Source: Sphingobacteriia bacterium
GTDB taxonomy: Bacteria; Bacteroidota; Bacteroidia; Bacteroidales; TTA-H9
DNA: 59,414 nucleotides
Direction of reading: 5' to 3'
Assembly: GCA_021286705.1 (NCBI GenBank)
Contig: JAJTBW010000002.1
Span: 1 to 59,414, forward strand
Part shown: piece after piece, positions 3,622-59,414 of the stretch
How positions within the stretch are numbered: the stretch's first letter is position 1
Layout of the letters: each line of letters opens with the position of its first letter
Notes under the pieces: generated by a model
Told to the model about the DNA's origin: nothing
Database searches by the model: none
The model's input: the letters and a program-made list of their open reading frames with translations, nothing else
Program-made: the position numbers and the translations under genes

Positions 3622-3654
3622 AAAGACTCTGCTTCCAAAGAAAACAGTAAACCT

Positions 3655-43403: not shown

Positions 43404-43410
43404 TCCAGCT

Positions 43411-43540: not shown

Positions 43541-43566
43541 TGCTGTCCTTTATTCTTGTCAATCTT

Positions 43567-44559: not shown

Positions 44560-44600
44560 TTTCTTTTTATTTTATGTCATTCTCGTATTTCAGGGTTGCA

Positions 44601-44730: not shown

Positions 44731-44743
44731 GCTGCTGTGCTTA

Positions 44744-45037
44744 TCATTCTTTATTCTTTCGTTTGTTTATCCAATTTGTTAGCCATTGAAGTTGTCCTGT
44801 GTAATAAAGATAAATACCTGAAACAAGTCCAATTAGAAACCACCATTTCATCATGTCAAGGTCTATGGGTTCAAAGTCGTCAGAAACGCCCCTACCATAA
44901 TATATTTCGTGCGGTTTGTTGAAGTCCTTGCCGTCAAAAACAATACCCCAAAATATTTGCCAACCTTGGTATAAAAACATTACCCCACCAATAAGGTAAA
45001 ACCCTATGTATGCTAAAACATTTATAAATCCTTTCAT
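44744..45037 (-). CDS. small membrane protein (two predicted TM segments)
   Basis: 97 aa. Hydrophobic stretches at residues 5-25 and 64-85, with a basic C-terminal tail. No family recognised. Confidence 0.5.
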   Translation of the reverse strand: MKGFINVLAYIGFYLIGGVMFLYQGWQIFWGIVFDGKDFNKPHEIYYGRGVSDDFEPIDLDMMKWWFLIGLVSGIYLYYTGQLQWLTNWINKRKNKE

Positions 45038-45104
45038 ATTCTTATGCTTTAATTTTCAAAGTATTCCAATCTCCGCTCCAAGCGTTCTTTTTATAGTAAC
45101 CTGT

Positions 45105-45236
45105 CTAAGCTCCATTCTTAATTAAGACATTGATTTTGTCTTTGTCCCAAGGGTCTGACTTGTATTTGTAGTCTTTTGCAAATATTAATGTTGCCGCGAA
45201 GACTAACAGTATCAAGAGAAGAATTGCTTTTTTCAT
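45105..45236 (-). CDS. possible 43-aa signal-peptide/membrane micropeptide (below the ORF-track cutoff)
   Basis: Hand translation gives MKKAILLLILLVFAATLIFAKDYKYKSDPWDKDKINVLIKNGA. Lies 67 nt upstream of the 97-aa ORF in the same cassette. Confidence 0.3.
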   Translation of the reverse strand: MKKAILLLILLVFAATLIFAKDYKYKSDPWDKDKINVLIKNGA

Positions 45237-45308
45237 TTTTTTACTTTTTTGTTTTTTATGCTTATAATAGTCGGTTTTCAGCGTCCCTGTTTACGGTCGG
45301 TTAAAGTT

Positions 45309-45444
45309 GCCGCTAACGGTGGCGATATGAAACGTAGCGATTTGCGTGACTGCAAACCTATCCTCTGTTACTGACCTTGCCAGCGGGTACTAAGCTTGCA
45401 AATTGCACTGAAACCACTATGTATTATGACCGCATGTTAGCGGC
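45309..45444 (-). repeat. attC-like imperfect palindrome B
   Basis: Perfect 9-bp terminal inverted repeat GCCGCTAAC / GTTAGCGGC. The inner arms pair only weakly. Lies 27 nt after the stop at 45472. Confidence 0.55.
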
Positions 45445-45471
45445 TCCGTTTTCTTTCTTTTAGTATTTCTA

Positions 45472-45969
45472 CTACCAAAATTTCCACCAAGGTTTTGTCT
45501 GTTCTGGTTCGTCATTTTCCGCTGTTAAAGACCAAAACTCCTCTTTAAAAGGCAAGTTTGTAAATTCCTTTGTCACTAGATGAACATAGGGATAAATCGA
45601 ATCTTCACTCCCATTCTGAAATCGTTTCATAACTTTTTGAATAGGCCAAATTTGTCCGTCATTTGGAAGTCTTAGAAATACATTAAGTTCGGCTTGTGGG
45701 TCATTGTCATCAGTTACCCATTCAGCACCTTTTACGTTTTTGATAATTGTCTCTCCAACATATGAACCAATTGAAAAAAGTTTTGGTCCAAATCCCTTAC
45801 CGTATAGTCGTCCACCTTTTTTAGGTTTTCCGTTTTTTATATTTACTTCAAAAAATCTGTCCACTTCAATAATACTTTCAATAGTGTAATCAAGTTTGAA
45901 GCCATCAGCCTCAAATGCTTTTACTATCCAGTCTGATTGTGATTTAATGTCTTCTTTTAAAGTTGCCAT
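45472..45969 (-). CDS. hypothetical cytoplasmic protein (single-gene cassette)
   Basis: 165 aa, no TM segment and no motif recognised. Trp-rich C-terminus (KPWWKFW). Confidence 0.55.
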   Translation of the reverse strand: MATLKEDIKSQSDWIVKAFEADGFKLDYTIESIIEVDRFFEVNIKNGKPKKGGRLYGKGFGPKLFSIGSYVGETIIKNVKGAEWVTDDNDPQAELNVFLRLPNDGQIWPIQKVMKRFQNGSEDSIYPYVHLVTKEFTNLPFKEEFWSLTAENDEPEQTKPWWKFW

Positions 45970-46020
45970 ATTTCAAATTCTTTTTGTTGCTTAACGTTTC
46001 AGTGGGCGTTTTAAACTGAC

Positions 46021-46098
46021 CGCTAACGTTTTGCGTGTAGGCGATGTTGCCTTGTGTTGCGCCTGCGGCAAGGCAATATTGCTTACACGCTGTTACCA
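46021..46098 (-). repeat. attC-like imperfect palindrome C (shortest, best hairpin)
   Basis: Plus strand reads CGCTAAC...GTTACCA. GCGTGTA (46033-46039) pairs with TACACGC (46084-46090), and GTTGCCTTG (46046-46054) pairs with CAAGGCAAT (46069-46077). Lies 23 nt after the stop at 46122. Confidence 0.7.
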
Positions 46099-46121
46099 CC
46101 AGTGCTATTATACATTTTCAA

Positions 46122-46835
46122 TTATTTCCAATCCACATGCCCCAAGGGTAATTCATTCAACTCCATTCGTGCCTCACGCCAATTGGGATAAAATTTATCC
46201 AATATAGCTATGAATTTTTCATTGTGTACCGGAACAATCAAGTGAGCCAGCTCATGAACAATGACATACTCTATAAGATCTTTGGGCTTTTTCACGAGCT
46301 CTGTATTCAATCTGATGTTTCTCGATTTGTGGTTGCAGCTTCCCCACTTGGTTTTCATCCGCTGTAGAAAATAAGCATTGGCTTTTATTCCAAGAATAGG
46401 TTCCCATTTTGCTACCGTTTCAAGAACATATTCATGAAGTTGCTTTTTTTGCCATTCATAAAATACTTCTTCCCGCTTGGACTTATTAGATCCCAGTTTA
46501 ACGAATAGGTTGATCTTTTTGTGATCAAGCGTCACTTGCTGCTTGCCATCTGTATGAACCACATTAAGTAGATACCTTCTTCCCCATACGTAATGCGATT
46601 CTCTCTTGACAAATTCGCGAGGCTTTTCTCTTGGTTGCTTGGCCAATTTCTCCTGCTGCAATCTTATCCAGGATAATTTTGATATGGCGTATGCTCTAGC
46701 CACTTCAAGGCGCGTGTTCAATGGAGCAGAAAGCGACACCCGACCATCCGGTGGATGAACCGACAGGTGGACATTTTTTATATCCTTCCTGGTCACCTCA
46801 ATTTTTAATTCTCCTAATTGAATAATATCCTTCAT
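46122..46835 (-). CDS. YgjP-like (DUF45/M48-type) zinc metallopeptidase
   Basis: 237 aa. HELAHL (HExxH) motif in [15 protein letters not shown]. Its start overlaps the hsdR stop by 4 nt. Confidence 0.85.
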
Positions 46836-49800
46836 TCGTAACCTTTCATGTTTTTCAGCAATTCAAAAAGCGCAGAAGTTGCTGCACGATCTCTTTGCAT
46901 GATGGGAAAAAGTGCATTTAATACCTGCTTTTCTCTTGTGTCATCTCCGCGCCATCCGGCTGGAGCCATCTCGCGCATTATCCTGTCAATTTCGAGCGCT
47001 AAAAGAACCAATTTATCTCCATATTCAACTTGTGGTTCTGCTGCGATGAGTGGACGAGCAGCATGCGATAAAATATCCGATAGGTTATTATAGATGATTA
47101 TGGCTTCAGACTTTCCTTGCAGTTTGGATGGCACACTGGTGTTGTATTGACCTTTAGCCATCTTTTGAACTAACTCTTCTGCCTTCTTCAAAAAGGCTTC
47201 ATACTCGGCAGTATCTTCTCGCTTTTGTTTTATCAAATCTTCTAAAAGCAATGACATCTCCTTATAAAACCGGGGATCAGTTAATTGATCTCTAATAATG
47301 GTTTGCCTTACGTTATTGATAATTCCCTCTGCTATTGAATTCCTGGATAGCTTCCCTTTTTCATTTAGCTTCTTAGCAATGGCATCGTGTATGCCTGTTT
47401 GGATGATCATCTCAACGAGCGAGTACTTATCGACTTCACCTATTGGATCGGCTGGATCGGCTTGGATATAAGTATTTATCAAATGCCGCATATCCGCTTC
47501 AAATGGCTTGATATCTAATTCTTCTCCACTGTATTTTTTAATCGCTGAGCGTATCTCCGTGTAAAGCTCAACCTCCGTATTAATGGCAAGTGCATCGGCA
47601 TCTGAATAACCTGCTTCGGTTAAATAACTTGATATGGCTGAAAATGCCCTTACAAAAGTTACCACCGATTTGTAAAAAGAGATTCGAAGTGGTTCGGTTT
47701 CAGTAAGAGATTCCGGGTTATTAGCATCGCCACAGAAGTACGCAATAAACTGTTCAACTTCTTTAGGTTGGGCAACGGGCTCGCATAGATATTTTAATGC
47801 CTCTCTTGCAGTATCTAATCGCTTTTTACCTTCTACCAACCAATTTTTTAATTCAACATTATTTTCACGGGTAGTACCATCTTCAGTATCTAATTCATTA
47901 GAGGTATAAACAGCAATGGCTTGCTGCACATCTCCGAATAATTCCTTGAAATCTACGATATAACCGAAATCCTTATCGTCACCATCTAATCTGTTTGTTC
48001 GGCAGATGGCCTGGAATAAATTATGATCTCTTAATTCATTATCCAGATAAATGTAAGAACAAGAAGGTGCATCAAAACCTGTAAGCAACTTACTCACTAC
48101 AATGAGTAGTTTACAATTAGCCGGCTCATCTTTGAACCTTCTTTTTATTTCATCTTCGTATTGTGTTGTTGTTTGATTAGTACTGAGCACATGTTGCGTA
48201 TAAGTATCAAACTTATAGCGTTCATCACTGTTTGCAGGTTCTCTGGAAATGTTATTGTGATTGGGTTCGTAAGAGGTAACAATACCGCAGTACTGGCCAA
48301 ATGATGTGTTCTTAAACAAACGGTAATAATGACAGGCATCGTAAATAGATGCTGCAACCAAAATAGCCGTCCCACGATTATTGTTTAGGCGATTTCTCAA
48401 ACTAAAATCTTCAATAATACTTGCAATAATTCGCTGCTTTCGCTCTCCGGCACTCATCAGTGATTCCATATTCGCCCAAGCTTTGCGAACCACCGCTTTT
48501 TGGAAGTTGTTTAAGTATCTCGTCTTTGCTTCAAACCAATTGTCTATGGCAGCTTGCGAGGTTAATTGTTGAGGAACATTTCGAGCTTCATATTTTAAAT
48601 CCAGCACAACACCATCTTTTACTGCCTCATGGAATTTATAGGTATGGATGTTTTTTCCAAATACTTCTCTAGTCGTTTGTTTGTCTTTTCTGAGTAAAGG
48701 TGTACCTGTGAAGCCAATGAATATGGCATTTTGCATCCAACGTTTCATTTGCTTATTCATATTTCCACCTTGTGTTCGATGGCATTCATCAACAAACACA
48801 AAAAATCGTCCACTCACCGCTGGCAATTCGCCTTCTAGATCGGTTGTATCAAATTTGTGAACCAGCGCACACAATAAACGAGGTGAAGTGGCTGAGATAG
48901 CTTCAATAAACTTGGCTCTTGAGGTTATCCGAGGGGAGGGTGCTGTTTCCGCAATGACTCCGGCATTGCGCATAACACCTTCTATTTGTTTATCCAGCTC
49001 ATCTCTGTCAGTAATCACTAAAATTCGGGCATCAGGATCGTGCTCCATGATCCATTTGGCTAGCAATACCATTAAGATACTCTTTCCACTGCCTTGTGTG
49101 TGCCAAATAACACCGCCTTCTCTGATGCGAATTCGTTCTTGTGCTGCTTTGATACCGGCAAATTGATGTGGACGAGGCACTTTCTTTTGTCCGGCATCGA
49201 AGATGATGAAATTCCGGATCAGATCGAGGATGCGCTCTTTACGACACATTTGTGCCAATGGAATATCCAATAACTCACCGGCAGTATTTCCGATTGGGCT
49301 TTTGGTTTCATCTTTCCATTCTACAAAAAACTGTTCCGGTGTACCGGTGGTTCCATATCGCAAGCCTTGAGAATCACTTCCGGCAAATACCAATTGAACA
49401 GTGGAGAAAAAACGTTCATTAAAAATGGATTCCTGGTTCGTGATCAACTGTCGAACACCATCCGCAACTTCAACAGAGCTTCGTTTTAATTCAATTACAC
49501 CAATGGCTATTCCATTGATGTAGATAACCAAGTCCGGTCTCCTTTCATGGCCACCTTTAAGGGTAACTTCTTCTGCAATTCCGAAATCATTGTTTTCTTT
49601 GTTTTCCCAATCGATGATATTAACATCCTCGTAGGGTGCACTGGCGGATGTTTTTACTTTAATAGGATAACGCAGCAGGCTATACGTTCGCAGATTGGCT
49701 TGATATAAAGTTGTACCTGTTGTATCTGCTGCCGTTTCTAATTGCACCAAGGCAGCCGCTATTTGCGCATCTGAATAACCACGTTTCTTAAGATTGTACT

Positions 49801-49936
49801 TGAGCAAATCAGTTTCAATATTCCTATGGGACTTGCTACTCCAATCACCTAAGTTTTCGTAACCCAAACAATTGGGAACCGAATGATCTGCAAAAAGTTT
49901 TATTACCCTGTTTTGGGTTTTACGTTCTGGTCTCAT
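46832..49936 (-). CDS. hsdR: type I restriction endonuclease subunit R
   Basis: 1034 aa. Helicase motif I TQGSGKS, motif [10 protein letters not shown] (DEAH-type), later SF2 motifs and a C-terminal helical domain. Confidence 0.95.
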
Positions 49937-51102
49937 ACCAATCTAATTTTACCCGTTAACAATGTCTGCATCATGCCTTGCTTTTGGTGTTTGAGCTTTA
50001 GGAGTTTAAAGTCTATTGAAGATATTAGTTCATCCATTTCATTGAGAACTATTGAAATGGAATCTTGTACATCTTTATTGGGGCAGTGTATCTCAATATT
50101 TTTGAGTTCACTCTTATTCAACTTAGCTCTTGTCCCCCCATTAATATAGTCTAATATATTTTTATGAACTACAGAATAATAAATGAAATCTTGATTGAAT
50201 TGACTCTTGGCTTTCAAAATATGGGCATGATTATTTACCCAACATTTACCGGACATTCTATAAGCAATTGATCTTGTTTTAAATTCATCGAAATATCCAC
50301 CATCTTCTGCCATTAATATCATTTCAAAGTCTGTTAAATATTCATTTATATAATCAACAACTCCATTAGCGCCACAATAAGGTATATCTCCTTTCATTCT
50401 TTGTCTTTCAGCATCATTCAAGGGCTTTCTAAGATTATTAAGAATATCACAGCAATCATTAATGGTCATTTTCTCCCAACCCTCCTTCGGCCTGAGCAAT
50501 TCCTGCATTACCCCTTGTTTGATGGCCTTCTTTTTTTCGATGAGCTTTTCGGTTTGGGTTATCAAAGCATCTATATCCGATAAGGCAGTGGCAATGGCGG
50601 TTTGTTCTGGAAGAGGGGGTAAAGGAATCTTTATACTTTTGACCTTAGAGGGGCTTATCTCAAGAAATGTACTTCCGCTTGCATTTTGAAGTAGTACATT
50701 CTTTTTTGTCAACATTAAATAGTAAAGAAATTCATTGTTAATCTTTGAATTAGCAATTAAAGATTGGAATCCTTGATTTGTTGCAGCTTCACATTTTAAT
50801 ATTCCCAAGTCGCCAATCCCCGCTCTAGAAGTAAGTAATATTGTTCCAGGGCACAAAACTTTAGCAGATGAATTTCTTAATCCTAAATCAGTAATTTTTC
50901 TTCTGCTTGAAAATAAATATTTGTCATATCCAACCTCGGTTGGAGTAAACCAATTTATATCTCCATCCCAGAAATCATTTATTCTGGTGCTTGGTGTACC
51001 ACCACCAAGCACTAATGCAACATCAGATATTTCAACAACTACCCATTCATCTGGAATAATCATTATTTCTGTATTTTTATATTTCTCCGCTACTAACTCC
51101 AT
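49933..51102 (-). CDS. hsdS: type I restriction-modification specificity subunit S
   Basis: 389 aa. Two target-recognition domains separated by the conserved central helix [21 protein letters not shown], with a C-terminal [15 protein letters not shown]. Confidence 0.9.
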
Positions 51103-53546
51103 ACAAATCCCATTTTTTTAAGGTGAGTATTCACTTTGTCTTCTAGGGATTTTACTTCCTTATTTAGTAAAGGAAGTGGAGTATCATAGCGTTCAATCAA
51201 TTCTTTTACTCTACCTGTCAATTGCTGGCTAATGCGATCCATTTCAGTTTTAACGGTTATTTCGATTGCCGGTAGCCATTTGTGCTCAATCAAAATCGAT
51301 TGTACTTCTGTTTCGGTAAGTTGCGGATATTTTTCATACGCTTTTTTATCCAGAGCTTCTTCTTGCTTTTTAATGGAGGCTTTTAGTTCTGCTTGTTTAG
51401 CATCTAACTCAATCCATTGATTCAATAATTCGGCTTCTTCTTTGGCCTCTTTATCGCCTTTGATTTCTTTCAATCGCTTGTTGATATCTCCTTTGTTGAT
51501 TTTGTTTAATGTGCTAAAAACACCTTCCTCTCCGCTATCTTGTGGTGAGCCCGCAGAACCATTTTCTTCCTCTAATTCAGTAAGTGATGCTTGTGCGTTT
51601 TCCAGTTCTGCTTGGAGGGTATCTAAAGCCGTTTTTTCTTTTTGAAAATAAATGGATACCAACAGCTCTTTTGGTATCAAGTCGCAAGTCCAACCCTTGT
51701 CTTTTTTCTTGCCTTTATCCTTGCCCGCTTTCACTTCTTCCAATACTCTACGCGTTTCTGCTTTCCAACCATCGGCTGCAATCAAGTAGGCATCATCCTG
51801 CATGGTTTCATTCCAGTAATTCATCAAATGCTGATACACATCGTAGGCATCAATGAGTTTGGCTTTTTTGAACGCATTCAACAGGCTTTCCGATAAATCT
51901 CCGATCAATGCTTTGGGATGTGCATCTTTTCCAAAGGCATTCAGTTGGGGAACTACTTTCTTCTTCCATGCCTCATAGATTTTTGTATTCTCATTTTTCA
52001 AGGTTTCAAATTCTACATCTTGATGAATGGCAGGTTTAATTTCTGTGGCCGCCAACTTTGCCTCCAGATAACCATTTCTTGCGTTTTTGAACAAGGTATT
52101 TCGCAAACCTGGTAAGACTTCCCAGTAGGCACTCATGTTGTCAATATCGCGCAGGGGAATACCGCCATTCAAGTGCGCATCAATATCCTGAATATCTTCC
52201 AGCTCCGTAGCATCAATGTAACGAGGTATATTCAGGTTGTAATCATTTTTAGGATCAGCAATCTCATCTACAGGAACCATTCGGGAAAACTTGTCAATGG
52301 TTTCTTGTTTCATAAAGGTATCCACGATTTTATGAATGTCTTGCTCTCTCAAACGGTTTTTGTTGCCGTCTTTCATAAACCCCTTGCTGGCATCCACCAT
52401 GAATATGCCTTTTCGTGCCTGGGCATTTTCCTTATCCAAAACGAGGATACAGGCCGGTATGCCTGTTCCGTAAAACAAGTTAGCCGGTAATCCAATTACT
52501 CCTTTCAAAATACCTGAGTTGATCAGATTTCTTCTTATTCCAGCTTCCGCATTGCCTCGGAATAATACACCATGCGGCAAAATGCAAGCTGCCTTACCAG
52601 TGCTTTTCATGGAGCGGATGATGTGCAACAGGTACGCATAATCACCTTGCTTTGCAGGTGGCTCGCCCCATTCAAATCTTCTATATAAATCAGAGGTAGG
52701 TGTAATACCGGTGCTCCAGGTTTTATCGGAAAATGGCGGATTGGCTACTACATAATCGTAAGTACGGAGATTGGTACCATCGAGGAATTTGGGATTCGCC
52801 AGTGTATTTCCAGCCATGATATTGGCCGTTGGAAAATCGTGTAGAATCATATTCATTCTGGCCAGACCGGAAGTGGTCACATCCATTTCCTGACCTTCCA
52901 ACGTGATGCGCTTTCCCGCTTCAGCTGCCACTTTCAAGAGCAACGAACCCGATCCGCAAGTAGGATCATAAGCCGTGGTTGCAGCTACAGAATTTTGTGC
53001 ATTGATGCCAATCACCTTGGCGAGAATTCTACTGACCTCGGCAGGGGTATAAAATTGTCCCTTGCTTTTTCCGCTTTCCTGTGCAAAATGCTGCATGAGA
53101 TATTCATAGGCATCTCCCAAAATATCGTCATGGTCTGCACGGTTTTTTGAAAAGTCGAGTGTAGAGTTATTAAAGATATTGATCAGATTAGTCAGTCGAT
53201 CAACCATGGCTTTTCCTTCACCCAGTTTATTGGGATCGTTGAAATCAGGAAAATCACTTCTTGATAATCGAGCGTTTGCATCAATCAGCGGTTGAATTAT
53301 CTGGGTATTGATTTTGTCGCCAATATCATCCTTGCCTCTTAATTCCAGCATATCCTTAAAGCTGGAGCCCTGGGGGATGGTTACCGGAGGGGCAAAATCA
53401 TCGGTGTCAGCATACTTATCAGACACATACTTGATGAACAACATGAACAGTACGTAGTCTTTGTATTGACTGGCGTCCATGCCGCCTCTTAGTTCATCAC
53501 AACTTGCCCAGATGGAGCTGTATAATTCGGATTTTTTGATTGCCAT
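51093..53546 (-). CDS. hsdM: type I restriction-modification N6-adenine DNA methyltransferase subunit M (long form, about 330-aa C-terminal extension)
   Basis: 817 aa. SAM motif DPTCGSGSLL and catalytic VVANPPFSDK, then a Lys/Glu-rich coiled-coil-like C-terminal region. Confidence 0.93.
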   Translation of the reverse strand: MAIKKSELYSSIWASCDELRGGMDASQYKDYVLFMLFIKYVSDKYADTDDFAPPVTIPQGSSFKDMLELRGKDDIGDKINTQIIQPLIDANARLSRSDFPDFNDPNKLGEGKAMVDRLTNLINIFNNSTLDFSKNRADHDDILGDAYEYLMQHFAQESGKSKGQFYTPAEVSRILAKVIGINAQNSVAATTAYDPTCGSGSLLLKVAAEAGKRITLEGQEMDVTTSGLARMNMILHDFPTANIMAGNTLANPKFLDGTNLRTYDYVVANPPFSDKTWSTGITPTSDLYRRFEWGEPPAKQGDYAYLLHIIRSMKSTGKAACILPHGVLFRGNAEAGIRRNLINSGILKGVIGLPANLFYGTGIPACILVLDKENAQARKGIFMVDASKGFMKDGNKNRLREQDIHKIVDTFMKQETIDKFSRMVPVDEIADPKNDYNLNIPRYIDATELEDIQDIDAHLNGGIPLRDIDNMSAYWEVLPGLRNTLFKNARNGYLEAKLAATEIKPAIHQDVEFETLKNENTKIYEAWKKKVVPQLNAFGKDAHPKALIGDLSESLLNAFKKAKLIDAYDVYQHLMNYWNETMQDDAYLIAADGWKAETRRVLEEVKAGKDKGKKKDKGWTCDLIPKELLVSIYFQKEKTALDTLQAELENAQASLTELEEENGSAGSPQDSGEEGVFSTLNKINKGDINKRLKEIKGDKEAKEEAELLNQWIELDAKQAELKASIKKQEEALDKKAYEKYPQLTETEVQSILIEHKWLPAIEITVKTEMDRISQQLTGRVKELIERYDTPLPLLNKEVKSLEDKVNTHLKKMGFVWS

Positions 53547-53552
53547 ATTTCG

Positions 53553-55385
53553 TTAATTCAGTTGTTCGTCTAATTTATGAATGCCCCATATTTTTTTAGC
53601 AAGTTCTTCATACAATTCCTGTCTTTCGAATAATGCTCTTTTGTCAAAAGTAGTATAGGGCTTAAACTGCAAATTTTCCGTTTCCATGAAGCGTTTAAAC
53701 TGTGGATTGTTCTGGTAGCAATCACTGTTGAGTGATTTTGCTAATAAATTTTCACCAAAATAAATCGGTAGCTTCTTATCAAACGTCAAATCGTTTAAGC
53801 TTCTGTTCTTGTCCATTGGCAAAAGCAATAAGCCACCAAACTTGTTGCGATGACGGTCAAAGGTTTCTTTTTCAGGATATTCAGCTACAAACCAATCGTG
53901 ATGATCGCAGATGATATGTTCAATATCATAAGGGTTTTTAATTTCCCTATTGATATAGTTATTGAAATTAGATGGTATGCCACTTTGTGTTTCAATGTAA
54001 TCTGTCACACGCGAAAGAATATGAAGCATGTATCGTATGGTCCAACCATTCAAGCGAAATTCATCGATGGTTTCCAATTGAAATTCACTTTCGGTAATTT
54101 CTTGTTTGCATACTTCAAGCAAATCAGGAAGTGGTTTCCTTCTAATTCTTTTAGAAAGCATAAACACGCTGTAAACAATTGCTGAATAGTCAACGGTTTT
54201 GTAATTAAAAATTCTACGGGTAAAATACAAATCCAAAAAGCAGGAAACTAATTTAATTTTTATGTCTGATTCCTCTTTGGTTTCCGAAGGGTCAATAGCA
54301 GCTAATATTAATTGATACTGCAATGTAAAATTCCTGTCGGCATTATAGAAAACATATTCAAAACCTTTAGTTAGGGTAGCGGAGTACTTTTTTAGGTCGA
54401 GGTAAATCTGGCTGAACTTATCAAACTGTTTTAAAACAAAGTATTCAAAGTCCTTGCTTCTGACCAGTTTCATTTGTGTATTGTGTTCTCTAACCCACTT
54501 GTGAAAGGCAGTACCGATAATATCAAAATCACCCGGTGATGCATTTTTCTTTCTTTCTCTTATGGTTTCTGCGTATTGAGAACGAATCCAGTTTTTAATA
54601 AAATCGCTTTCTTCTTCCTTCCCTAAACCTTTTAATTCAAGTATTCTTTTTTTCCAGAGGTCGTTAGCTTGTTGTCGAACACTATCATTTTCAATTTTAC
54701 TGAGTAAATACCCCTTCAACATTTCGGTTGGTGTTAAACTCAACCCTCTGTCGTTCATGGACACAAATATTTTGTGAGCATCTTGCTCTGTTTGAGCTAC
54801 AATGCGGATGAAATCTACATTGTCAATAAGCCAATCTTTAAAAATATCCAATGATTCTTTAGGCAAAGTATCATTCATGATTGCTTTGATGTCCGCATAG
54901 CGATTGTAGATATTTCGAATTGTTTCCGAATGTTTCGCAACATCCATGTATTTACCCTGCAGCAATGCGTTCATCACATCATAGCGTTCAGGCATTTCGG
55001 GCACATGAATATTAAATGTCTTTGTTCCGGCTTTCTTAGAATAAATCAGTTGTAATACTTCTGCTCTTTCTTCTTCGTCTTCCAACTGATGATATAAATA
55101 GATAAGCAGAAGTGTTAAAGACGTTAATCGTTGTTGTCCATCAATGATTGCGTTATCGTCTGCGGTTAAAACTATGGACCCCATGAAATAATGGCCATAC
55201 TCCAATACTTTTCCTCTTTCGTCTTGGACGGAATAGAACTCAAAGAATTCTTCGGTTAAGTCATCAATAAGTTCCTCAATTTGTTTGGTCTGCCATTGGT
55301 ACTCACGCTGGTAATAGTGGATAGTATATTTTACTCCAGTAAATAACTCTCTGATTGTTTTTGGTGTTCCGTCAATTTTTTTCAT
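53553..55385 (-). CDS. DUF262/DUF1524 protein (GmrSD-family type IV restriction-like enzyme)
   Basis: 610 aa. N-terminal ParB/DUF262 motif IIDGQQRLTSL. C-terminal His-Me finger-like DUF1524 pattern DIEHIICDHH ... LLLLPMDKNRSLND. First gene of the operon. Confidence 0.85.
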   Translation of the reverse strand: MKKIDGTPKTIRELFTGVKYTIHYYQREYQWQTKQIEELIDDLTEEFFEFYSVQDERGKVLEYGHYFMGSIVLTADDNAIIDGQQRLTSLTLLLIYLYHQLEDEEERAEVLQLIYSKKAGTKTFNIHVPEMPERYDVMNALLQGKYMDVAKHSETIRNIYNRYADIKAIMNDTLPKESLDIFKDWLIDNVDFIRIVAQTEQDAHKIFVSMNDRGLSLTPTEMLKGYLLSKIENDSVRQQANDLWKKRILELKGLGKEEESDFIKNWIRSQYAETIRERKKNASPGDFDIIGTAFHKWVREHNTQMKLVRSKDFEYFVLKQFDKFSQIYLDLKKYSATLTKGFEYVFYNADRNFTLQYQLILAAIDPSETKEESDIKIKLVSCFLDLYFTRRIFNYKTVDYSAIVYSVFMLSKRIRRKPLPDLLEVCKQEITESEFQLETIDEFRLNGWTIRYMLHILSRVTDYIETQSGIPSNFNNYINREIKNPYDIEHIICDHHDWFVAEYPEKETFDRHRNKFGGLLLLPMDKNRSLNDLTFDKKLPIYFGENLLAKSLNSDCYQNNPQFKRFMETENLQFKPYTTFDKRALFERQELYEELAKKIWGIHKLDEQLN

Positions 55386-55503
55386 TTATATTCCTTATTT
55401 ACAAGGTCATCGTTAAAGTCTGTCCGCTTGGTCGATATGGTCTGTATGTCGTTTCTATTTTCAGTCATTGTCTTGCTGTGTCGTCTGTCTTTTTAGCATT
55501 GGT

Positions 55504-55634
55504 GGTAACGGTTGACAGATTTGCGATGGGCGGGATTTTTACCACTAATGTTTATGAGGAGCACAAAACTTTTGGCTACCACTAAACTGCCTGCGGAGCA
55601 CGAAACCCCGCCTATTGCAAATGTGCTGTTATAC
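55504..55634 (-). repeat. attC-like imperfect palindrome E
   Basis: Plus strand reads GGTAAC...GTTATAC. Arm 55515-55534 pairs with arm 55607-55626 at 16/20. Lies 6 nt after the stop at 55641. Confidence 0.7.
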
Positions 55635-55640
55635 GCAGCA

Positions 55641-56510
55641 TTACTTCCCTTTATTCGTAACACACGCTTCTCTAAATTGTATTCCTAATTCTGTTAATTC
55701 TATGTATTTTTCAATTTCTGTAATTCCAGTATGTTCAGTATCGTATTGGGCTTTAAATTTTTCATACTCGTCTGTTTTGATTAGAATGTCATAAGCATTT
55801 GGCCCAACAAGATGTCGTCCTGCTGGCATATGTAAAAGTCCAAGTCGGCATAAATTGTCTATATACTTTGATGTCAAGTCTGGATATTTACAGCCCGCCT
55901 CTTGTCCAATATTTGAATAATTATTTACAAGGTTAAGTTCACCACCCGTCCCATTTTTCATTTTTAGTTTAATGTCCATTATTGGCTTATAAACATTTGG
56001 ATAAAAAACCTTCAAAATAAGTCCTTCGTCCGATGTCATATTTTTAATTATTTCAACAAAGCCTGGATGTGCTTTTTTGATTGTCTCCTTATCCATTGAG
56101 TTTGCTATGAGATTAGCATAAAGTTCACTCAGGGTCTCATTGTTGCCTGTATACCTTAATGCTTCTAAAGCAGGTCCAACAATTGAAGGGTCAGGTGTAA
56201 CTATATTTTCTTCTGGAATATCTTTTAGCTTTTCGGCAACTCTGTTTTGAACAAACTCACTAATTTTTTCATAGCCCCAAACTAAAGCACTAATTGGGGC
56301 AAGGGCAATATTGATTGTCTTAGTAACTGTCGCTAATGACTTTCCTATTTCTTTCGCAGCAGGTTGGATTGTATCATTATATACTGGAACTGCTTTTACA
56401 AGTCCTGTTACAGCGTCAATAGTGCTTTTTACATTGCTGTCTTTAGGATTATTTTCAGGTGTCTCCATTGTTTTTATATTTAGTCTGTGTCGTTTCAAAA
56501 TGTTGCGCAT
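55641..56510 (-). CDS. Abi-alpha (DUF4393)-like protein
   Basis: Conserved-looking core PAAKEIGKSLATVTKTINIALAPISALVWGYEKI ... ELYANLIANSMD ... HPGFVEIIKNMTSDEGLILK resembles the Abi-alpha pattern. Start uncertain: ATG at 56510 lies inside the attC-like core, ATG at 56468 gives METPENN, and the track start at 56549 runs through the palindrome. Confidence 0.6.
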   Translation of the reverse strand: MRNILKRHRLNIKTMETPENNPKDSNVKSTIDAVTGLVKAVPVYNDTIQPAAKEIGKSLATVTKTINIALAPISALVWGYEKISEFVQNRVAEKLKDIPEENIVTPDPSIVGPALEALRYTGNNETLSELYANLIANSMDKETIKKAHPGFVEIIKNMTSDEGLILKVFYPNVYKPIMDIKLKMKNGTGGELNLVNNYSNIGQEAGCKYPDLTSKYIDNLCRLGLLHMPAGRHLVGPNAYDILIKTDEYEKFKAQYDTEHTGITEIEKYIELTELGIQFREACVTNKGK

Positions 56511-56639
56511 AACGTTTTGAGGCTTGGTGTAGTAGCGGATTTTTAGCACAAAAGTTCAATCGAAGAACTGCACTTGAACCTACCACAAAACTTTCATACG
56601 AAGCACAGCACCCGCCATTACGCCAAACCGCTGTTGGCG
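56508..56639 (-). repeat. attC-like imperfect palindrome F
   Basis: Plus strand reads CATAAC...GTTGGCG. GAGGCTTGGTG pairs with CGCCAAACCGC (8/11), and TAGCGG pairs with CCGCCA. Lies 7 nt after the stop at 56647. Confidence 0.6.
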
Positions 56640-56646
56640 GTAGTTT

Positions 56647-57105
56647 TTATTCACTTTTATTCTCTGTTGTGTTTTGATTCCATGTCAAACTGATTATAAC
56701 TAAAATTGCAAGTGGGAAAATGGTATAAACCAAGAACTCTGTTATGTCATAATAGTAGGCGAATTTGTCGCCCCAATAATAATATCTTGAAAAGCCATCA
56801 AATGGCCAAAAGTCATTAAAACCACCGTTAGAGTTTTCACTTTTAAAAGCTCCTCCGGAAAATATTAATAAAAGTGAGAGATGCAGAAGTATCCAAGCCA
56901 AATACCATCCCATAGCTTTTTTAAGAAATTGATAGTCTATTGAAGACTTGTGAACTTCAGCTACTTGTCTTGTAATTTCTTTTTCAATAATTACTTCAGC
57001 AAGTTTTTCCTTCAATGTAGGTTCGCCTTCTGTCTGCTTGTGTCCACAATGCGAACAGAATTTTGAGTTGTCTGGGATTTGTGCCCCACATTCTATACAA
57101 TACAT
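56647..57105 (-). CDS. zinc-ribbon membrane protein
   Basis: 152 aa. N-terminal CxxC-X12-CxxC ribbon (YCIECGAQIPDNSKFCSHCG), then two hydrophobic segments (residues about 66-85 and 124-143). Confidence 0.6.
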   Translation of the reverse strand: MYCIECGAQIPDNSKFCSHCGHKQTEGEPTLKEKLAEVIIEKEITRQVAEVHKSSIDYQFLKKAMGWYLAWILLHLSLLLIFSGGAFKSENSNGGFNDFWPFDGFSRYYYWGDKFAYYYDITEFLVYTIFPLAILVIISLTWNQNTTENKSE

Positions 57106-57132
57106 ATTTTTATCTTTTGAATTGGTTGATAA

Positions 57133-57744
57133 TTAACACCTAACTCTTTTAATTGCTTCGTAGTCTTTTACAAATTTGTCAAGCTTGTATTCGTTGGAAT
57201 TGTATAATTCTCCTACAGTTGTCCCACAATAGCAAGTAAGAATAGCATCTTCGGTTGTGTTCTTTTCAAACAAAGCGAATTGATCGGGATTTACTTCAAA
57301 TGTTAATCTCAATACTTCTCCGTATTCAAGTCTTACAGGGAATTTTAACTGCTCCTTTGGAAACATCAGAAAAGTATCGTGCTCAATACCTGGCTTTAAT
57401 TCAAATTTCGGTGACACTTTAAAATATGGTTGATTAAAATATCTGTGCTCCTTTGTTAGATTGGTTATAGTTACACCCCAAAGGACAGCATTGTTCCCAT
57501 AGTTGGCAATTGCCGCAATAACTGTTAAGTAAATATTTGCTCCAACTTTCATTTCGCTTTCTAAATTGTTGTGTTTTTGAAGTTCAGTCAGTATCTCTTT
57601 TGGCAATTCAGATAGTTTGTTTTGAAAATCTATAAAAAATTTTCTCACCTGCTCTGTGTCAGAAAGGCTGATTGAAATTGTTGAGTTGTCGGCATCTTGT
57701 ATTACAACATTACCGTGTCCGTCTATATGTGAATTATTTAGCAT
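57133..57744 (-). CDS. hypothetical soluble protein sharing an N-terminal 25-aa module with the upstream small TM protein
   Basis: 203 aa with no known motif. The N-terminus MLNNSHIDGHGNVVIQDADNSTISI aligns with MKNESKIQGERNVNIQNVSKSKVSI of the 57734-57943 ORF. Confidence 0.55.
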   Translation of the reverse strand: MLNNSHIDGHGNVVIQDADNSTISISLSDTEQVRKFFIDFQNKLSELPKEILTELQKHNNLESEMKVGANIYLTVIAAIANYGNNAVLWGVTITNLTKEHRYFNQPYFKVSPKFELKPGIEHDTFLMFPKEQLKFPVRLEYGEVLRLTFEVNPDQFALFEKNTTEDAILTCYCGTTVGELYNSNEYKLDKFVKDYEAIKRVRC

Positions 57745-57943
57745 AAAACAAATTTATAAGTTGCTCCCATCCAATTAAAATTTGAATAATAAGTCCAAAT
57801 AATGCAATAATAACAGGAATAATGATCCAAAATTTGTTCACTTTACCTGCAGTTACTTTCTTGTCGCCAATTGAAACTTTGGATTTAGAAACATTTTGGA
57901 TGTTTACATTTCTCTCTCCTTGTATTTTGCTTTCATTTTTCAT
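57734..57943 (-). CDS. small single-pass membrane protein
   Basis: 69 aa. Polar N-terminus and one TM segment (FWIIIPVIIALFGLIIQILIGW). Overlaps the next ORF by 11 nt. Confidence 0.45.
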   Translation of the reverse strand: MKNESKIQGERNVNIQNVSKSKVSIGDKKVTAGKVNKFWIIIPVIIALFGLIIQILIGWEQLINLFYAK

Positions 57944-58106
57944 TTTTCATTTTACAATTTGTGTGTCTTTAAAATTACTGTCAACTCATTTATCTTAGTA
58001 CATGACAAAAATTAACCTAATGAAAATCAGTAAATTAAGATAAGAAAAATTTGGAAATGACGTTGATTTTCAATAAATAAGAAGAATAATACTAATCATT
58101 TTTCTA

Positions 58107-58298
58107 ATGAAGAAAACCAACGTCACGAGTAAAATTACTGATTTGTTCCCAATATTAGATACTCATTTCAAAGGAAAAATCAATCGTTCCAGATTAAAAT
58201 TGATGTCTATGTTTGTAATCGCGCTCTGTAAGGTCCAAACGGTCTGCTTTGAGAAGCTTTCGAAGGCTTTCGATAGTGAAGCATTACCCTCTTCCTCC
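58107..58298 (+). pseudogene. N-terminal fragment of a DDE-type transposase (IS4-like, family uncertain), truncated
   Basis: The first about 60 aa (LFPILDTHFKGKINRSRLKLMSMFVIALCKVQTVCFEKLSKAF) resemble the N-termini of IS transposases, from memory. The reading frame runs into the unrelated 119-bp repeat at 58299, and no DDE domain follows. Confidence 0.35.
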
Positions 58299-58417
58299 TC
58301 AAATTCATACCAAGGGATAAACGGATCATAAGTCCCCTCAAGACTCATGCAGTTGTCATAACCTAAAACCAGACATCGGGTTAAAGGATACATCCTACTG
58401 CTCAATTTAGCTTAGTC
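58299..58417 (-). repeat. 119-bp direct repeat, copy 1 (5' UTR + first 36 codons of the glycine-zipper gene family, truncated copy)
   Basis: 107/119 identical to 59295-59413. TTG replaces the ATG start. The coding continuation is antisense transposase sequence, so this is a gene remnant. Confidence 0.85.
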
Positions 58418-58468
58418 AAATATATTAAATTGAAGCAACAGTTGCGATAAAAACACCAGTTGTAGTTA

Positions 58469-58502
58469 AACAATGAACCCCATCTAAACGGACTTCATTG
58501 TT
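58469..58502 (-). terminator. hairpin 3 nt after the stop of the 4-TM gene (weak terminator candidate)
   Basis: AACAATGAA ... TTCATTGTT 9-bp stem with a 16-nt loop, followed on the minus strand by TTTAAC. Confidence 0.3.
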
Positions 58503-58505
58503 AGG

Positions 58506-59006
58506 TTACATTTTTAGGCCCAGGATATTAAGCAAGAATACCAGTAGAACAAAGGCAAATGAAAGCAAGCCATATTTAATTTTATCTGCTTTCCCCCATT
58601 CCTCAAACTGTTCAAAATAACTTAAATACTTGTCTTTCTTAAAAACAAAAAAGTACGATAAAGCTACCGTCAAAATTCCACAAAATATAAAGTGGAGAGC
58701 GGATAGAGTAATATTTCCCGATAATAGCTTTAACAGAATATTAAGAGCTGCAAGAAAAAAGAAAAATAAGATTCCTAACATAGCCCCTCCGGCTACTATC
58801 ATACTTATTCCATATTCTTTATTTCCGAATGCCTTATCTATCTCTTTATAAATATCAATTCCCAACTTCTCATACCTTCTTTTCTGAAAAGGCAATTTAT
58901 GTATGAGAAGAAAAGGGTTTATTTTATTTGCAAATAGATGAAGTTTATAATCAGCTCTATAAAAGCAAAAGTGCAATACGTTTAAATAATTTTCTATCCT
59001 TTTCAT
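58506..59006 (-). CDS. four-TM membrane protein (immunity-like partner of the upstream glycine-zipper peptide)
   Basis: 166 aa. Hydrophobic segments at about 66-92, 98-122 and 142-163. The start codon overlaps the upstream stop by 1 nt (TGATG... context). Confidence 0.5.
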   Translation of the reverse strand: MKRIENYLNVLHFCFYRADYKLHLFANKINPFLLIHKLPFQKRRYEKLGIDIYKEIDKAFGNKEYGISMIVAGGAMLGILFFFFLAALNILLKLLSGNITLSALHFIFCGILTVALSYFFVFKKDKYLSYFEQFEEWGKADKIKYGLLSFAFVLLVFLLNILGLKM

Positions 59007-59401
59007 TATCTGTCGTGATAATAATTAACACTAATTTCTCCAACCTTATTACCAGTGAGACTTCCAGCATTTCCGCCAACAAATCCTCCAATAATGGCAT
59101 CTGGTACTGCTCCAACTCCACCAAACCAGGCCACTATTGCTGCTCCTAGAGCTACTTCGGCTTCTGCACCTGCCAATCCGCCTACAATTCTACCGGTTGC
59201 AGATGTGCCTGCTACATTTGCATTTTCCCATTCAGAAAAAGATAAGGCTTCAGTGGTGCCTTCAACATGTCTCAGTGCACCATTTGGGGCAACATCAAAT
59301 TCATACCAAGGGATAAAAGGATTATAAGTCCACACAAGACTCATGCAATTATTATAACTTAAAACCAGACATCGGGTTAAATGATACATCCTACTGCTCA
59401 T
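59006..59401 (-). CDS. small protein with C-terminal glycine-zipper region (bacteriocin/membrane-toxin-like)
   Basis: 131 aa. Its C-terminal half is rich in GxxxG/A repeats (GRIVGGLAGAEAEVALGAAIVAWFGGVGAVPDAIIGGFVGGNAGSLTG). An in-frame TAA three codons upstream of the ATG closes the ORF inside the window. Confidence 0.5.
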   Translation of the reverse strand: MSSRMYHLTRCLVLSYNNCMSLVWTYNPFIPWYEFDVAPNGALRHVEGTTEALSFSEWENANVAGTSATGRIVGGLAGAEAEVALGAAIVAWFGGVGAVPDAIIGGFVGGNAGSLTGNKVGEISVNYYHDR

Positions 59402-59413
59402 TTTATCTTAGCC
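59295..59413 (-). repeat. 119-bp direct repeat, copy 2 (runs to the window edge)
   Basis: See copy 1. Similarity continues to the last bases of the window, so the true repeat length is unknown. Confidence 0.85.
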
Positions 59414-59414
59414 A

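What the first reader, a model, noticed from the sequence alone, without database searches (positions are those of the whole stretch)
56647..57943. Uncharacterised three-gene cassette: small TM protein, soluble 203-aa protein with the same N-terminal module, and a zinc-ribbon membrane protein
The promoter-proximal cassette holds three tightly linked minus-strand ORFs: 57943-57734, 57744-57133 (overlapping the first by 11 nt) and 57105-56647. It ends at attC-like site F. None shows a motif I can assign to a described defence or toxin family, apart from the CxxC-X12-CxxC zinc ribbon of the third. The first two proteins share a 25-residue N-terminal module with 12 identities: MKNESKIQGERNVNIQNVSKSKVSI versus MLNNSHIDGHGNVVIQDADNSTISI (pattern M.N.S.I.G..NV.IQ....S..SI). 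In one protein the module is followed by a single TM helix, and in the other by a soluble beta-rich domain. A shared short module on adjacent genes suggests co-assembly or a common recognition tag. The context supports a defence role: next to Abi-alpha, type I R-M and GmrSD-like genes, and inside a cassette array. Two of the three products are membrane proteins. Together this makes it a candidate for a new membrane-acting abortive-infection, toxin-antitoxin or exclusion module. This functional reading is inference only.
Basis: partly seen in the sequence, partly recalled or inferred. Interest (0 to 1): 0.72.

Follow-up and report, generated by a model that had tools for sequence, protein, structure and literature searches.

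The report
Shared-motif sensor and membrane-effector gene pair
Two overlapping genes in an integron-type cassette encode a tiny membrane-anchored protein and a soluble sensor-like protein that carry the same short beta-strand tag, which most resembles the amyloid-signalling cell-suicide switches bacteria use against viruses; the third gene looks like a separately mobile passenger.

Summary
The three ORFs, the 11-nt overlap and the shared N-terminal module are real. The window pair has 12/25 identities (0 of 200,000 shuffles reach this). The family profiles match at hhalign E=6e-11.

Comparative data split the trio. A (69 aa, module plus C-terminal TM helix) and B (203 aa, module, helices, Ig-like sandwich) form a conserved two-gene unit in Bacteroidota. 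About 39 of ~41 non-redundant B genes have an adjacent partner carrying the module. That partner is A-type, a ~125-aa helical protein with the module at its C-terminus, or a TM-first protein. The zinc-ribbon gene C sits next to B only in the window's closest relatives, and elsewhere it occurs with other genes.

B's N-terminal unit also heads NB-ARC/TPR, SIR2 and SLOG proteins. B's Ig-like domain is fused to defence-type TIR domains in 14 relatives. No Pfam, PADLOC, NCBIfam or PDB family covers A or B.

Best reading (inferred): a two-component abortive-infection switch. Sensor B nucleates, through the shared beta motif, assembly of the tail-anchored effector A. This parallels Bab/Agp and Bell/NLR amyloid signalling. 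I rate it a new variant of a known kind. Defence function and amyloid behaviour are untested.

The parts
57978..57985 (-). G|TTGACAG core: 5' boundary of the cassette (R'-type recombination core)
   Evidence: Aligns with GTTGGCGGTAATTTTAAAG at the attC 3' ends upstream of gene A in O. hominis, Mycovorax and L014, and with the attC/attI ends of the integrase-linked array L088. DNA homology to O. hominis/Mycovorax starts exactly at 57985.
57734..57943 (-). Gene A: 69-aa tail-anchored protein (N-terminal beta module, Lys-rich linker, one TM helix, conserved GW(D/E)xIxxF tail); proposed membrane effector
   Evidence: ORF. No Pfam, PADLOC or NCBIfam hit. About 27 non-redundant B loci have an A-type gene immediately upstream. 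Alignment and consensus.
57869..57940 (-). Shared module in A (residues 2-25, KNESKIQGERNVNIQNVSKSKVSI)
   Evidence: 12/25 identities with B; 0 of 200,000 shuffles reach this. hhalign E=6.4e-11.
57764..57832 (-). TM helix of A (about residues 38-60)
   Evidence: Kyte-Doolittle window scan. Conserved in all A-type partners.
57133..57744 (-). Gene B: 203-aa soluble protein; proposed sensor/nucleator
   Evidence: ORF. 126 homologue clusters, all unnamed. 160 representatives by profile search. AF2 model has pLDDT 88.
57667..57741 (-). Shared module in B (residues 2-26, three short strands)
   Evidence: The same N-terminal unit is found on NB-ARC/TPR, SIR2_2 and SLOG proteins.
57145..57561 (-). Ig-like beta-sandwich domain of B (about residues 62-200), with no Pfam model
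   Evidence: AF2. Foldseek finds only generic sandwiches, TM-score <=0.49. Fused to TIR_2/SEFIR domains in relatives.
56647..57105 (-). Gene C: 152-aa zinc-ribbon protein with a long helix and two TM helices; in the same cassette here but not a conserved partner of A/B
   Evidence: Pfam Zn_Ribbon_1 E=3.6e-9. Structure. At least 295 homologue clusters, found in other contexts. Next to B only in the window lineage.
   Evidence: R''-like CGCCAAC and R'-like GTTATGC with complementary inner arms read from the sequence. The MFE fold of a slightly truncated segment did not recover the end-to-end stem, whereas four sister sites in the window did. Its first bases resemble the attC following a C-like gene in L088.

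Best explanation
A and B form a two-gene, translationally coupled conflict module. It is most likely an abortive-infection type switch, carried on an integron-type cassette.

B is a cytoplasmic sensor. Its Ig-like C-terminal domain would recognise a trigger. Its N-terminal ~25-residue beta motif (xIDGxGNxVIQxxDNSTITI) is the output.

A is a tail-anchored effector with the matching motif (xxKIxGDxNxVxQxxxxSKI) facing the cytoplasm, followed by a single TM helix.

On activation, clustered B motifs would nucleate homotypic stacking of A motifs. This could be a cross-beta/beta-solenoid (amyloid-like) assembly or a finite beta-sheet oligomer. Stacking would bring A's TM helices together so that they perturb the membrane and stop the infected cell.

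Shown: the gene pair, the shared motif and its portability, the domain swaps, and the context. Inferred: which protein senses and which kills, the templating mechanism, membrane damage, and anti-phage function.

Gene C is a separately mobile cassette gene that has become joined to A+B in this lineage.
For: 1. Conserved pairing. Among ~41 non-redundant module-bearing B genes, ~27 have an upstream A-type gene. About 10 have a downstream ~125-aa helical protein with the module at its C-terminus. Two have a downstream TM-first protein with repeated modules, and one has TM helices fused to B. Only 1-2 are orphans, one of them with a degenerate motif.

2. Adjacency of motif hits. A B-derived motif HMM hits 22 non-B ORFs above 6 bits among 4,716 ORFs in the loci. 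Twenty of the 22 lie immediately upstream of B.

3. Motif homology. A vs B gives hhalign E=6.4e-11. The C-terminus of the helical partner vs the B N-terminus gives E=8.2e-5.

4. Co-variation. Within-pair motif identity is 9.2/23 against 7.8/23 between pairs; permutation p=0.00025.

5. Motif composition. It is 76% G/N/Q/S/T/V/I, with no proline in 575 residues. Sub-threshold Pfam similarity to beta-solenoid repeats: Curlin_rpt E=0.047 and LbR_Ice_bind E=0.002.

6. Domain swaps typical of conflict systems. B's N-terminal unit heads NB-ARC+TPR, SIR2_2 and SLOG/STALD proteins. B's Ig-like domain follows TIR_2/SEFIR domains that match PADLOC bSEFIR, SpbK, ThsB and PDC-S66. The 14 TIR fusions have no motif partner.

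7. Context. Abi_alpha, GmrSD and type I R-M lie in the same array. Five of 150 non-redundant neighbours are OLD/GajA/AriA-like ATPases. The pair is bounded by attC-type sites.

8. Precedent. Bab/Agp, and Bell/NLR pairs with BASS motifs (bioRxiv 10.1101/2024.11.07.622273; 10.1101/2020.01.06.895854).
Against: - There is no experimental data for any member.
- AF2 models B's motif as a moderately confident three-stranded meander (pLDDT 72-79). In NLR, SIR2 and SLOG fusions the conserved unit extends into the following helices. It may therefore be a small folded adaptor rather than an amyloid-forming peptide.
- In the window pair both motifs are N-terminal, unlike canonical effector-C-terminal / receptor-N-terminal pairs.
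- B is not an NLR and has no NTPase switch, so how it would be held off and then activated is unknown.
- The co-variation test does not control for relatedness of the pairs.
- Neighbour enrichment has no formal background.
- Some loci sit among housekeeping genes (L004, L011).
- The one SIR2 locus examined (L094) has an adjacent nSTAND1 protein without the motif.
Confidence: 0.55

Rival explanations
1. Constitutive membrane tether. The shared motif is a stable beta-zipper that permanently docks B's Ig-like domain onto the membrane anchor A (or onto the helical partner). The complex serves an envelope, transport or stress function, with no switch and no cell killing.
For: AF2 gives the motif as a folded meander. 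Some loci lie among housekeeping genes. Overlapping start/stop codons fit a stoichiometric complex. The Ig-like fold is generic.
Against: The Ig-like domain is swapped onto defence-type TIR domains. The N-terminal unit is swapped onto NB-ARC/TPR, SIR2 and SLOG proteins. Distribution is patchy and horizontally mobile, with ~90% identity across different orders. The pair is carried on cassettes next to Abi, R-M and OLD-like genes.
Confidence: 0.15
2. Toxin-antitoxin logic. A is a small membrane toxin. B neutralises it by capping its motif, and loss or titration of B releases A. This uses the same parts as the best explanation with reversed polarity of control.
For: The pair is tightly coupled with the small hydrophobic protein first. 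The genes are cassette-borne, and integron arrays are rich in TA modules (established knowledge). Motif pairing is shown.
Against: An antitoxin role does not explain why B's domain is fused to TIR effectors without any partner. It also does not explain why the same N-terminal unit heads NLR-like sensors. The partner can be a non-TM helical protein.
Confidence: 0.15
3. One reading: A, B and C together form one three-component membrane-acting system.
For: One attC-like site follows all three genes. The trio is kept at ~87% DNA identity in O. hominis and Mycovorax. C-like genes are often tightly linked to some other unknown gene in cassettes or defence islands.
Against: C is absent from ~38 of ~41 non-redundant B loci, including two 84-88%-identical relatives (L014, L031) where attC-like sequence follows B. 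C is split into two ORFs in Mycovorax. C carries no copy of the motif. The C family is larger and occurs with unrelated partners.
Confidence: 0.08
4. The motif is a sorting or secretion signal recognised by a common export machine.
For: It is a short terminal tag shared by adjacent proteins.
Against: The motif occurs at N- or C-termini. It sits on cytoplasmic NB-ARC/TPR, SIR2 and SLOG proteins. It has no hydrophobic core or cleavage-site features (sequence).
Confidence: 0.02

Closest known systems
Bab/Agp abortive-infection system of E. coli ECOR25 (BASS11 amyloid signalling; bioRxiv 10.1101/2024.11.07.622273)
   Same: Adjacent genes whose products share a ~25-residue beta motif. One partner is a small membrane-targeting executioner and the other is a non-NLR sensor with the motif at its N-terminus. 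The locus lies in a defence island. Relatives of B pair with a ~125-aa helical protein carrying the motif at its C-terminus, which is the same layout as Bab.
   Different: [quoted passage not shown] The window's effector is a 69-aa single-TM tail-anchored protein with the motif at its N-terminus. The host phylum is Bacteroidota. No sequence relationship to any solved structure was detected. The motif could not be compared with BASS11, because no sequence was available. Amyloid formation is untested.
Bell/NLR gene pairs with BASS1-10 motifs, and fungal HET-S/NWD2 (bioRxiv 10.1101/2020.01.06.895854)
   Same: A short G/N/Q/V/I/S/T-rich motif is shared by adjacent gene products. The same motif also sits at the N-terminus of NB-ARC/TPR proteins and on other immune-type domains (TIR, SIR2) in the same phylum.
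   Different: BASS families were reported in multicellular Actinobacteria, Cyanobacteria and Archaea; that text does not mention Bacteroidetes. B lacks any NOD/NTPase module. In B and the NLR-type proteins the conserved unit includes a following helix.
'EAD principle' of NTP-dependent conflict systems (Kaur, Iyer, Burroughs, Aravind; eLife 2021, PMC8195603)
   Same: The same small adaptor appears on a sensor and on separately encoded effectors in one neighbourhood, with promiscuous fusion to TIR, SIR2 and STAND modules.
   Different: Described EADs are folded, mostly alpha-helical Death-like domains. This unit is a ~25-residue beta motif, and the partner is a minimal TM protein.
Single-protein TIR defence genes (bSEFIR, SpbK, ThsB-like; PADLOC models)
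   Same: Fourteen relatives carry a TIR domain of these types fused to B's Ig-like domain. This suggests that the Ig-like domain plays the sensor role.
   Different: The window's B has no TIR domain. The PADLOC matches cover the TIR part only, and the Ig-like domain is in no PADLOC or Pfam model.
Integron cassettes encoding phage defence (bioRxiv 10.1101/2024.07.02.601719)
   Same: Small, promoter-dependent, same-orientation genes bounded by attC-type sites in an array with Abi and R-M genes.
   Different: The host is in Bacteroidota. The window contains no integrase. The array also holds a 9.4-kb multi-gene unit.

Membership tests
Amyloid-signalling gene pairs (BASS / Bell-NLR, Bab/Agp) | Short (~20-25 aa) motif shared by the products of adjacent genes | tested here: met
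   12/25 identities in the window pair; hhalign E=6.4e-11; conserved in ~39 of ~41 non-redundant loci.
Amyloid-signalling gene pairs (BASS / Bell-NLR, Bab/Agp) | Motif at the N-terminus of the receptor and the C-terminus of the effector | tested here: inconclusive
   B: N-terminal (met). A in the window: N-terminal (not met). About 10 related loci have a helical partner with a C-terminal motif (met).
Amyloid-signalling gene pairs (BASS / Bell-NLR, Bab/Agp) | [quoted passage not shown] | tested here: not met
   B has no Pfam domain and folds as helices plus an Ig-like sandwich. The same N-terminal unit does occur on NB-ARC+TPR proteins elsewhere.
Amyloid-signalling gene pairs (BASS / Bell-NLR, Bab/Agp) | Effector carries a Bell/HeLo-type membrane-targeting helical domain | tested here: not met
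   A is a 69-aa single-TM protein. The helical partners in relatives match no Pfam or PDB family, so their Bell relationship is untested.
Amyloid-signalling gene pairs (BASS / Bell-NLR, Bab/Agp) | Motif forms amyloid or prion-like fibrils and cross-seeds its partner | not testable with these tools
   Only indirect evidence: 76% G/N/Q/S/T/V/I, no proline, and sub-threshold similarity to curlin and antifreeze beta-roll repeats.
Amyloid-signalling gene pairs (BASS / Bell-NLR, Bab/Agp) | Sequence membership in BASS1-11 motif profiles | not tested
   No BASS profiles or sequences were available in the tools or in the papers' held text.
Integron gene cassette | attC site with R''/L''...L'/R' imperfect palindrome at the 3' end | tested here: inconclusive
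   Core-like boxes and complementary arms are read from the sequence at 56639-56507. The MFE fold of a truncated segment did not give the stem, whereas four sister sites in the window fold end to end. No attC covariance model was available.
Integron gene cassette | 5' boundary at a G|TTRRRY-type core shared with other cassettes | tested here: met
   GTTGACAG at 57985-57978 aligns with GTTGGCGG cores upstream of gene A in three other genomes and with the attC/attI of L088. Homology starts there.
Integron gene cassette | Adjacent integron integrase and attI | tested here: not met
   No tyrosine recombinase lies in the window's array. A divergent recombinase with the same type of sites is seen in L088.
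Zn_Ribbon_1 (PF13240), gene C | CxxC...CxxC ribbon scoring above the Pfam gathering threshold | tested here: met
   36.5 bits against a cut-off of 25, E=3.6e-9. The AF2 zinc knuckle matches ribosomal and NZF ribbons only.
Known anti-phage defence families (PADLOC-DB v2) | HMM match of A, B or C | tested here: not met
   0 families at E<=0.1 for all three proteins.

The most novel reading that the evidence does not exclude
A+B is a minimal prion-like immune switch. A new, Bacteroidota-specific amyloid signalling motif lets a 203-aa non-NLR Ig-like sensor template the polymerisation of a 69-aa tail-anchored protein, and the clustered TM helices kill the cell. The same motif would wire NLR-like, SIR2, SLOG and Bell-like proteins into one signalling network in unicellular bacteria, spread by integron cassettes.
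Probability: 0.3. Interest if true: 0.82.

Novelty: new variant of a known kind. Interest (0 to 1): 0.66.

Why it matters
- Phylogenetic reach. If confirmed, motif-templated (amyloid-type) immune signalling would extend from multicellular Actinobacteria and Cyanobacteria, and one E. coli system, to Bacteroidota.
- A very small test system. The pair totals 272 residues, with an effector that is little more than a motif plus one TM helix. That would be a tractable model for how templated assembly is converted into membrane damage.
- A new sensor domain. The Ig-like domain of B is also used by TIR proteins and is undescribed.
- A new adaptor. The N-terminal unit is shared with NLR-like, SIR2 and SLOG proteins. 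This gives handles for finding further conflict systems in gut and environmental Bacteroidota.
- Annotation. In this integron type, multi-gene cassettes can be fusions of independent units, which matters when cassettes are annotated.

Tried and rejected
- Family libraries. Pfam, PADLOC, NCBIfam and PHROGs found nothing for A or B, and only the zinc ribbon for C.
- Fold searches. Foldseek of the B model against PDB and BFVD gave only generic Ig-like sandwiches (transglutaminase barrels, Kir cytoplasmic domains, ApaG, DUF4352/DUF5067) with TM-score <=0.49. I did not take any of these as functional leads. Foldseek of C gave only zinc knuckles.
- Word-indexed search with A. It found only 3 close relatives, because the protein is short. 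A-type partners had to be recovered from the loci instead.
- Helical partners. A PDB profile search and a Pfam scan found no Bell, Bab or other family.
- Mobile-element collections. B has no relatives in phage, plasmid or IMG/VR collections, so a phage-encoded exclusion gene is unlikely.
- RNA and promoters. Rfam found nothing in 55300-59414. The sigma-70 promoter/terminator scan was uninformative, with counts near the shuffle expectation.
- 'Cassette chassis' idea. I considered that a shared 5' end, gene C and attC might form a chassis with swappable front genes. I dropped it because the shared 5' sequence is just the conserved attC R' end of this integron type, and the attC sites after C differ.
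- NLR and SIR2 contexts. The attempt to test whether motif-bearing NLR or SIR2 genes have motif-bearing neighbours largely failed. One locus had no DNA, and in the other the adjacent nSTAND1 protein lacks the motif.
- Organism. Cluster look-up did not reveal the organism of the window.
Full report
**1. Observation**

The three minus-strand ORFs are as described:
- A: 57943-57734, 69 aa.
- B: 57744-57133, 203 aa.
- C: 57105-56647, 152 aa.

A and B overlap by 11 nt. A and B have no hit in Pfam, PADLOC, NCBIfam or PHROGs. C has only an N-terminal Zn_Ribbon_1 match (E=3.6e-9). The cysteine spacing is CxxC-X10-CxxC, not X12.

The first 25 residues of A and B share 12 identities, and none of 200,000 shuffles reaches that. 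A has one C-terminal hydrophobic helix.

An AlphaFold2 model of B from a 120-sequence alignment has pLDDT 88. It shows:
- three short N-terminal strands (2-7, 12-17, 22-26);
- three helices (30-57);
- an Ig-like beta sandwich (about 62-182);
- a C-terminal helix.

**2. Cassette context**

Housekeeping genes run to about 43.4 kb. From there to the contig end every gene is on the minus strand. In order these are:
- a DUF4062 protein and small unknown ORFs;
- a block of YgjP peptidase, type I R-M (HsdR/S/M) and GmrSD;
- Abi_alpha (PADLOC PDC-S47);
- the three genes studied here.

GC-rich imperfect palindromes with AAC...GTT ends separate these units. Four of them fold end to end. The site after gene C (56639-56507) has the same boxes and arms by eye.

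The 5' boundary of the cassette is a G|TTGACAG core at 57985-57978. It aligns with GTTGGCGGTAATTTTAAAG cores directly upstream of gene A in O. hominis, Mycovorax and L014. It also aligns with the attC and attI ends of locus L088, where a divergent tyrosine recombinase sits next to the array. DNA homology to the O. hominis and Mycovorax copies (87%) starts exactly at 57985 and fades inside gene C at 56890.

Upstream of the core the window is AT-rich and not attC-like. It is followed by an IS-like remnant, and there is no integrase. So 'cassette' is supported, while 'promoter-proximal' is plausible but unproven.

**3. The conserved unit is A+B, not A+B+C**

B has 126 homologue clusters, nearly all about 200 aa, unnamed and mostly from Bacteroidota. 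Copies at about 90% identity occur in Ornithobacterium hominis (Flavobacteriales) and Mycovorax (Chitinophagales), in unrelated surroundings. That pattern indicates horizontal transfer.

I collected 76 loci from genomes and metagenomes and analysed all ORFs. Among about 41 non-redundant B genes that carry the module:
- about 27 have an A-type gene immediately upstream. These are 56-89 aa, with the module, a linker, a TM helix and a conserved GW(D/E)xIxxF tail;
- about 10 have, immediately downstream, a 123-129-aa helical protein with the module at its C-terminus (alignment A3);
- 2 have a downstream protein with TM helices first and then two or three module copies;
- 1 has TM helices fused to B;
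- 2 are cut by contig ends;
- 1-2 are orphans, and one orphan has a degenerate motif.

A motif HMM built from B alone hits 22 non-B ORFs above 6 bits among 4,716 ORFs. Twenty of the 22 lie directly upstream of B.

Profile-profile comparison confirms that the module is homologous:
- A family against B family: 97% probability, E=6.4e-11.
- C-terminus of the helical partner against the B N-terminus: E=8.2e-5, with a one-residue gap.

Motifs are more alike within a gene pair (9.2/23 identities) than between pairs (7.8/23), permutation p=0.00025. This test does not correct for relatedness among pairs.

Gene C behaves differently:
- It is adjacent to B only in the window, O. hominis and Mycovorax, and in Mycovorax it is split into two ORFs.
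- Two B relatives at 84-88% identity (L014, L031) have attC-like sequence directly after B.
- The C family has at least 295 clusters at 60-80% identity.
- It occurs in other cassettes and defence islands with other tightly linked unknown genes, or alone.

C folds as a zinc knuckle, a long helix and two TM helices, with no informative structural match. The simplest reading is a fusion of two cassettes in this lineage.

**4. What the parts are related to**

An exhaustive profile search found 160 representatives and shows that B is made of two portable pieces.

The N-terminal unit (motif plus the following helix) heads other proteins:
- NB-ARC+TPR NLR-like proteins (five examples);
- a SIR2_2 protein;
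- a SLOG/STALD protein;
- several unknown architectures.

The Ig-like domain follows TIR_2/SEFIR domains in at least 14 non-redundant proteins. Those TIR parts match PADLOC bSEFIR, SpbK, ThsB and PDC-S66 models. None of the TIR fusions has a motif-bearing neighbour.

Foldseek finds only generic Ig-like sandwiches for B. The family is absent from phage, plasmid and IMG/VR collections. Of 150 non-redundant neighbours within 3 kb, five are OLD/GajA/AriA-type ATPases. Integrases, an Xre/MbcA-type TA and a trypsin-TPR protein also occur nearby.

**5. Mechanism**

Shown:
- a translationally coupled gene pair;
- a shared beta motif that is portable to either terminus and to different membrane-targeting partners;
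- replacement of 'motif plus separate membrane partner' by a fused TIR effector on the same Ig-like domain;
- use of the same N-terminal unit by NLR-like, SIR2 and SLOG proteins.

Inferred:
- the Ig-like domain is the sensor;
- the motif is the output that recruits or nucleates the partner;
- A is the executioner, whose TM helices are brought together by motif stacking.

The Lys-rich segment before A's TM helix suggests that the motif faces the cytoplasm, where B, which lacks a signal peptide, resides.

Several features make amyloid-like templating a reasonable sub-model:
- the motif's composition (76% G/N/Q/S/T/V/I, 17% Asn, no Pro in 575 residues);
- its two-rung repeat character;
- sub-threshold similarity to curlin and antifreeze beta-roll repeats.

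This sub-model parallels Bab/Agp, in which synthetic motif peptides form fibrils and Pro mutants abolish defence (10.1101/2024.11.07.622273). It also parallels Bell/NLR BASS pairs (10.1101/2020.01.06.895854).

Against it, AF2 gives B's motif as a moderately confident folded meander, and in B and the NLR-type proteins the conserved unit includes a helix. A finite beta-sheet adaptor is therefore equally possible.

My confidence by level of claim:
- A+B is the functional unit, coupled through the motif: about 0.85.
- It is a conflict or abortive-infection system: about 0.6.
- It works by amyloid-type templating specifically: about 0.3-0.4.

**6. Comparison and novelty**

It works like Bab/Agp and Bell/NLR pairs, but it fails several membership criteria:
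- the receptor is not an NLR or TGP protein;
- the window's effector is not a Bell domain;
- the window's effector carries the motif at its N-terminus.

BASS motifs were reported from multicellular Actinobacteria and Cyanobacteria. The held literature does not mention Bacteroidetes motifs or this family.

I classify it as a new variant of a known kind. The sensor domain, the minimal effector, the motif family, the host phylum and the integron carriage are all new, while the logic is known.

**7. Verdict**

Interest 0.66.

Noticed in passing
window 58299-58418 and 59295-59414 (with ORFs 59401-59006, 59006-58506, 58405-58163 on the minus strand, and 58107-58331 on the plus strand): A 120-nt direct repeat (90% identical) covers 13 nt of leader plus the first ~35 codons (MSSRMY.LTRCLVL.Y.NCMSL..TY.PFIPWYEF) of two ORFs. 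One is a 131-aa protein with a glycine-zipper C-terminus, followed by a 166-aa multi-TM ORF that looks like a toxin/immunity or bacteriocin-type pair. The other is truncated next to what looks like an N-terminal fragment of an IS transposase. Neither has a Pfam or PADLOC hit.
   Followed up: partly
window ~43405-56639, minus strand: An integron-like array without an integrase. attC-like sites lie at ~43405-43550, 45300-45450, 46015-46110, 55500-55650 and 56507-56639. One 9.4-kb unit between sites holds GmrSD, a complete type I R-M system and a YgjP/SprT-like peptidase, which is unusually large for a cassette. Abi_alpha forms a single-gene cassette.
   Followed up: partly
L088-L090 (metagenome; also Acetobacteroides hydrogenigenes L089), locus coordinates 80-7444: A tyrosine recombinase lies divergent from a cassette array: Fic | 246-aa unknown + C-like zinc-ribbon gene | ABC ATPase | Mrr-nSTAND3. 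The array uses the same GTTRGCGG core as the window. The C-like gene is tightly linked (12 nt) to an unrelated unknown gene there, and in L092 it overlaps a 343-aa unknown gene next to DpnII/DndB/RT genes.
   Followed up: partly
L023-L027 and L063-L084 (e.g. L026:5629-6450, L027:5620-6516): A family of 273-298-aa proteins has an N-terminal TIR_2/SEFIR domain fused to the B-type Ig-like domain. Members come from Pedobacter, Alistipes, Oleispira and Bacteroidales. In Alistipes and human-gut contigs the gene is flanked by an archaeal-type ATPase (377 aa) and a 690-aa unannotated ORF whose sequence shows a P-loop motif. This looks like an undescribed single-gene TIR defence candidate.
   Followed up: partly
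L017:6001-6609 and L013:5347-6591: L017 is an orphan B gene with no partner, and its motif has decayed (INDKKEIVFQ instead of IDGxGNxVIQ). L013 is a B gene whose N-terminus, including part of the motif, is replaced by an upstream ORF, giving a 414-aa fusion. Both fit the idea that the motif is maintained only when a partner is present.
   Followed up: no
P0185, P0196, P0240, P0237/P0248/P0257, P0250, P0251: Several other Bacteroidota architectures start with the same N-terminal unit but continue into domains with no Pfam match. These include a 735-aa protein, a ~280-aa family and a TM-containing 289-aa protein, which suggests a wider network built on this adaptor.
   Followed up: no
L006-L008:5594-7540: In one clade the A+B pair is followed, with overlapping stop and start codons, by a 648-aa secreted-looking Trypsin_2+TPR protein. 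It may be an additional component in that lineage.
   Followed up: no
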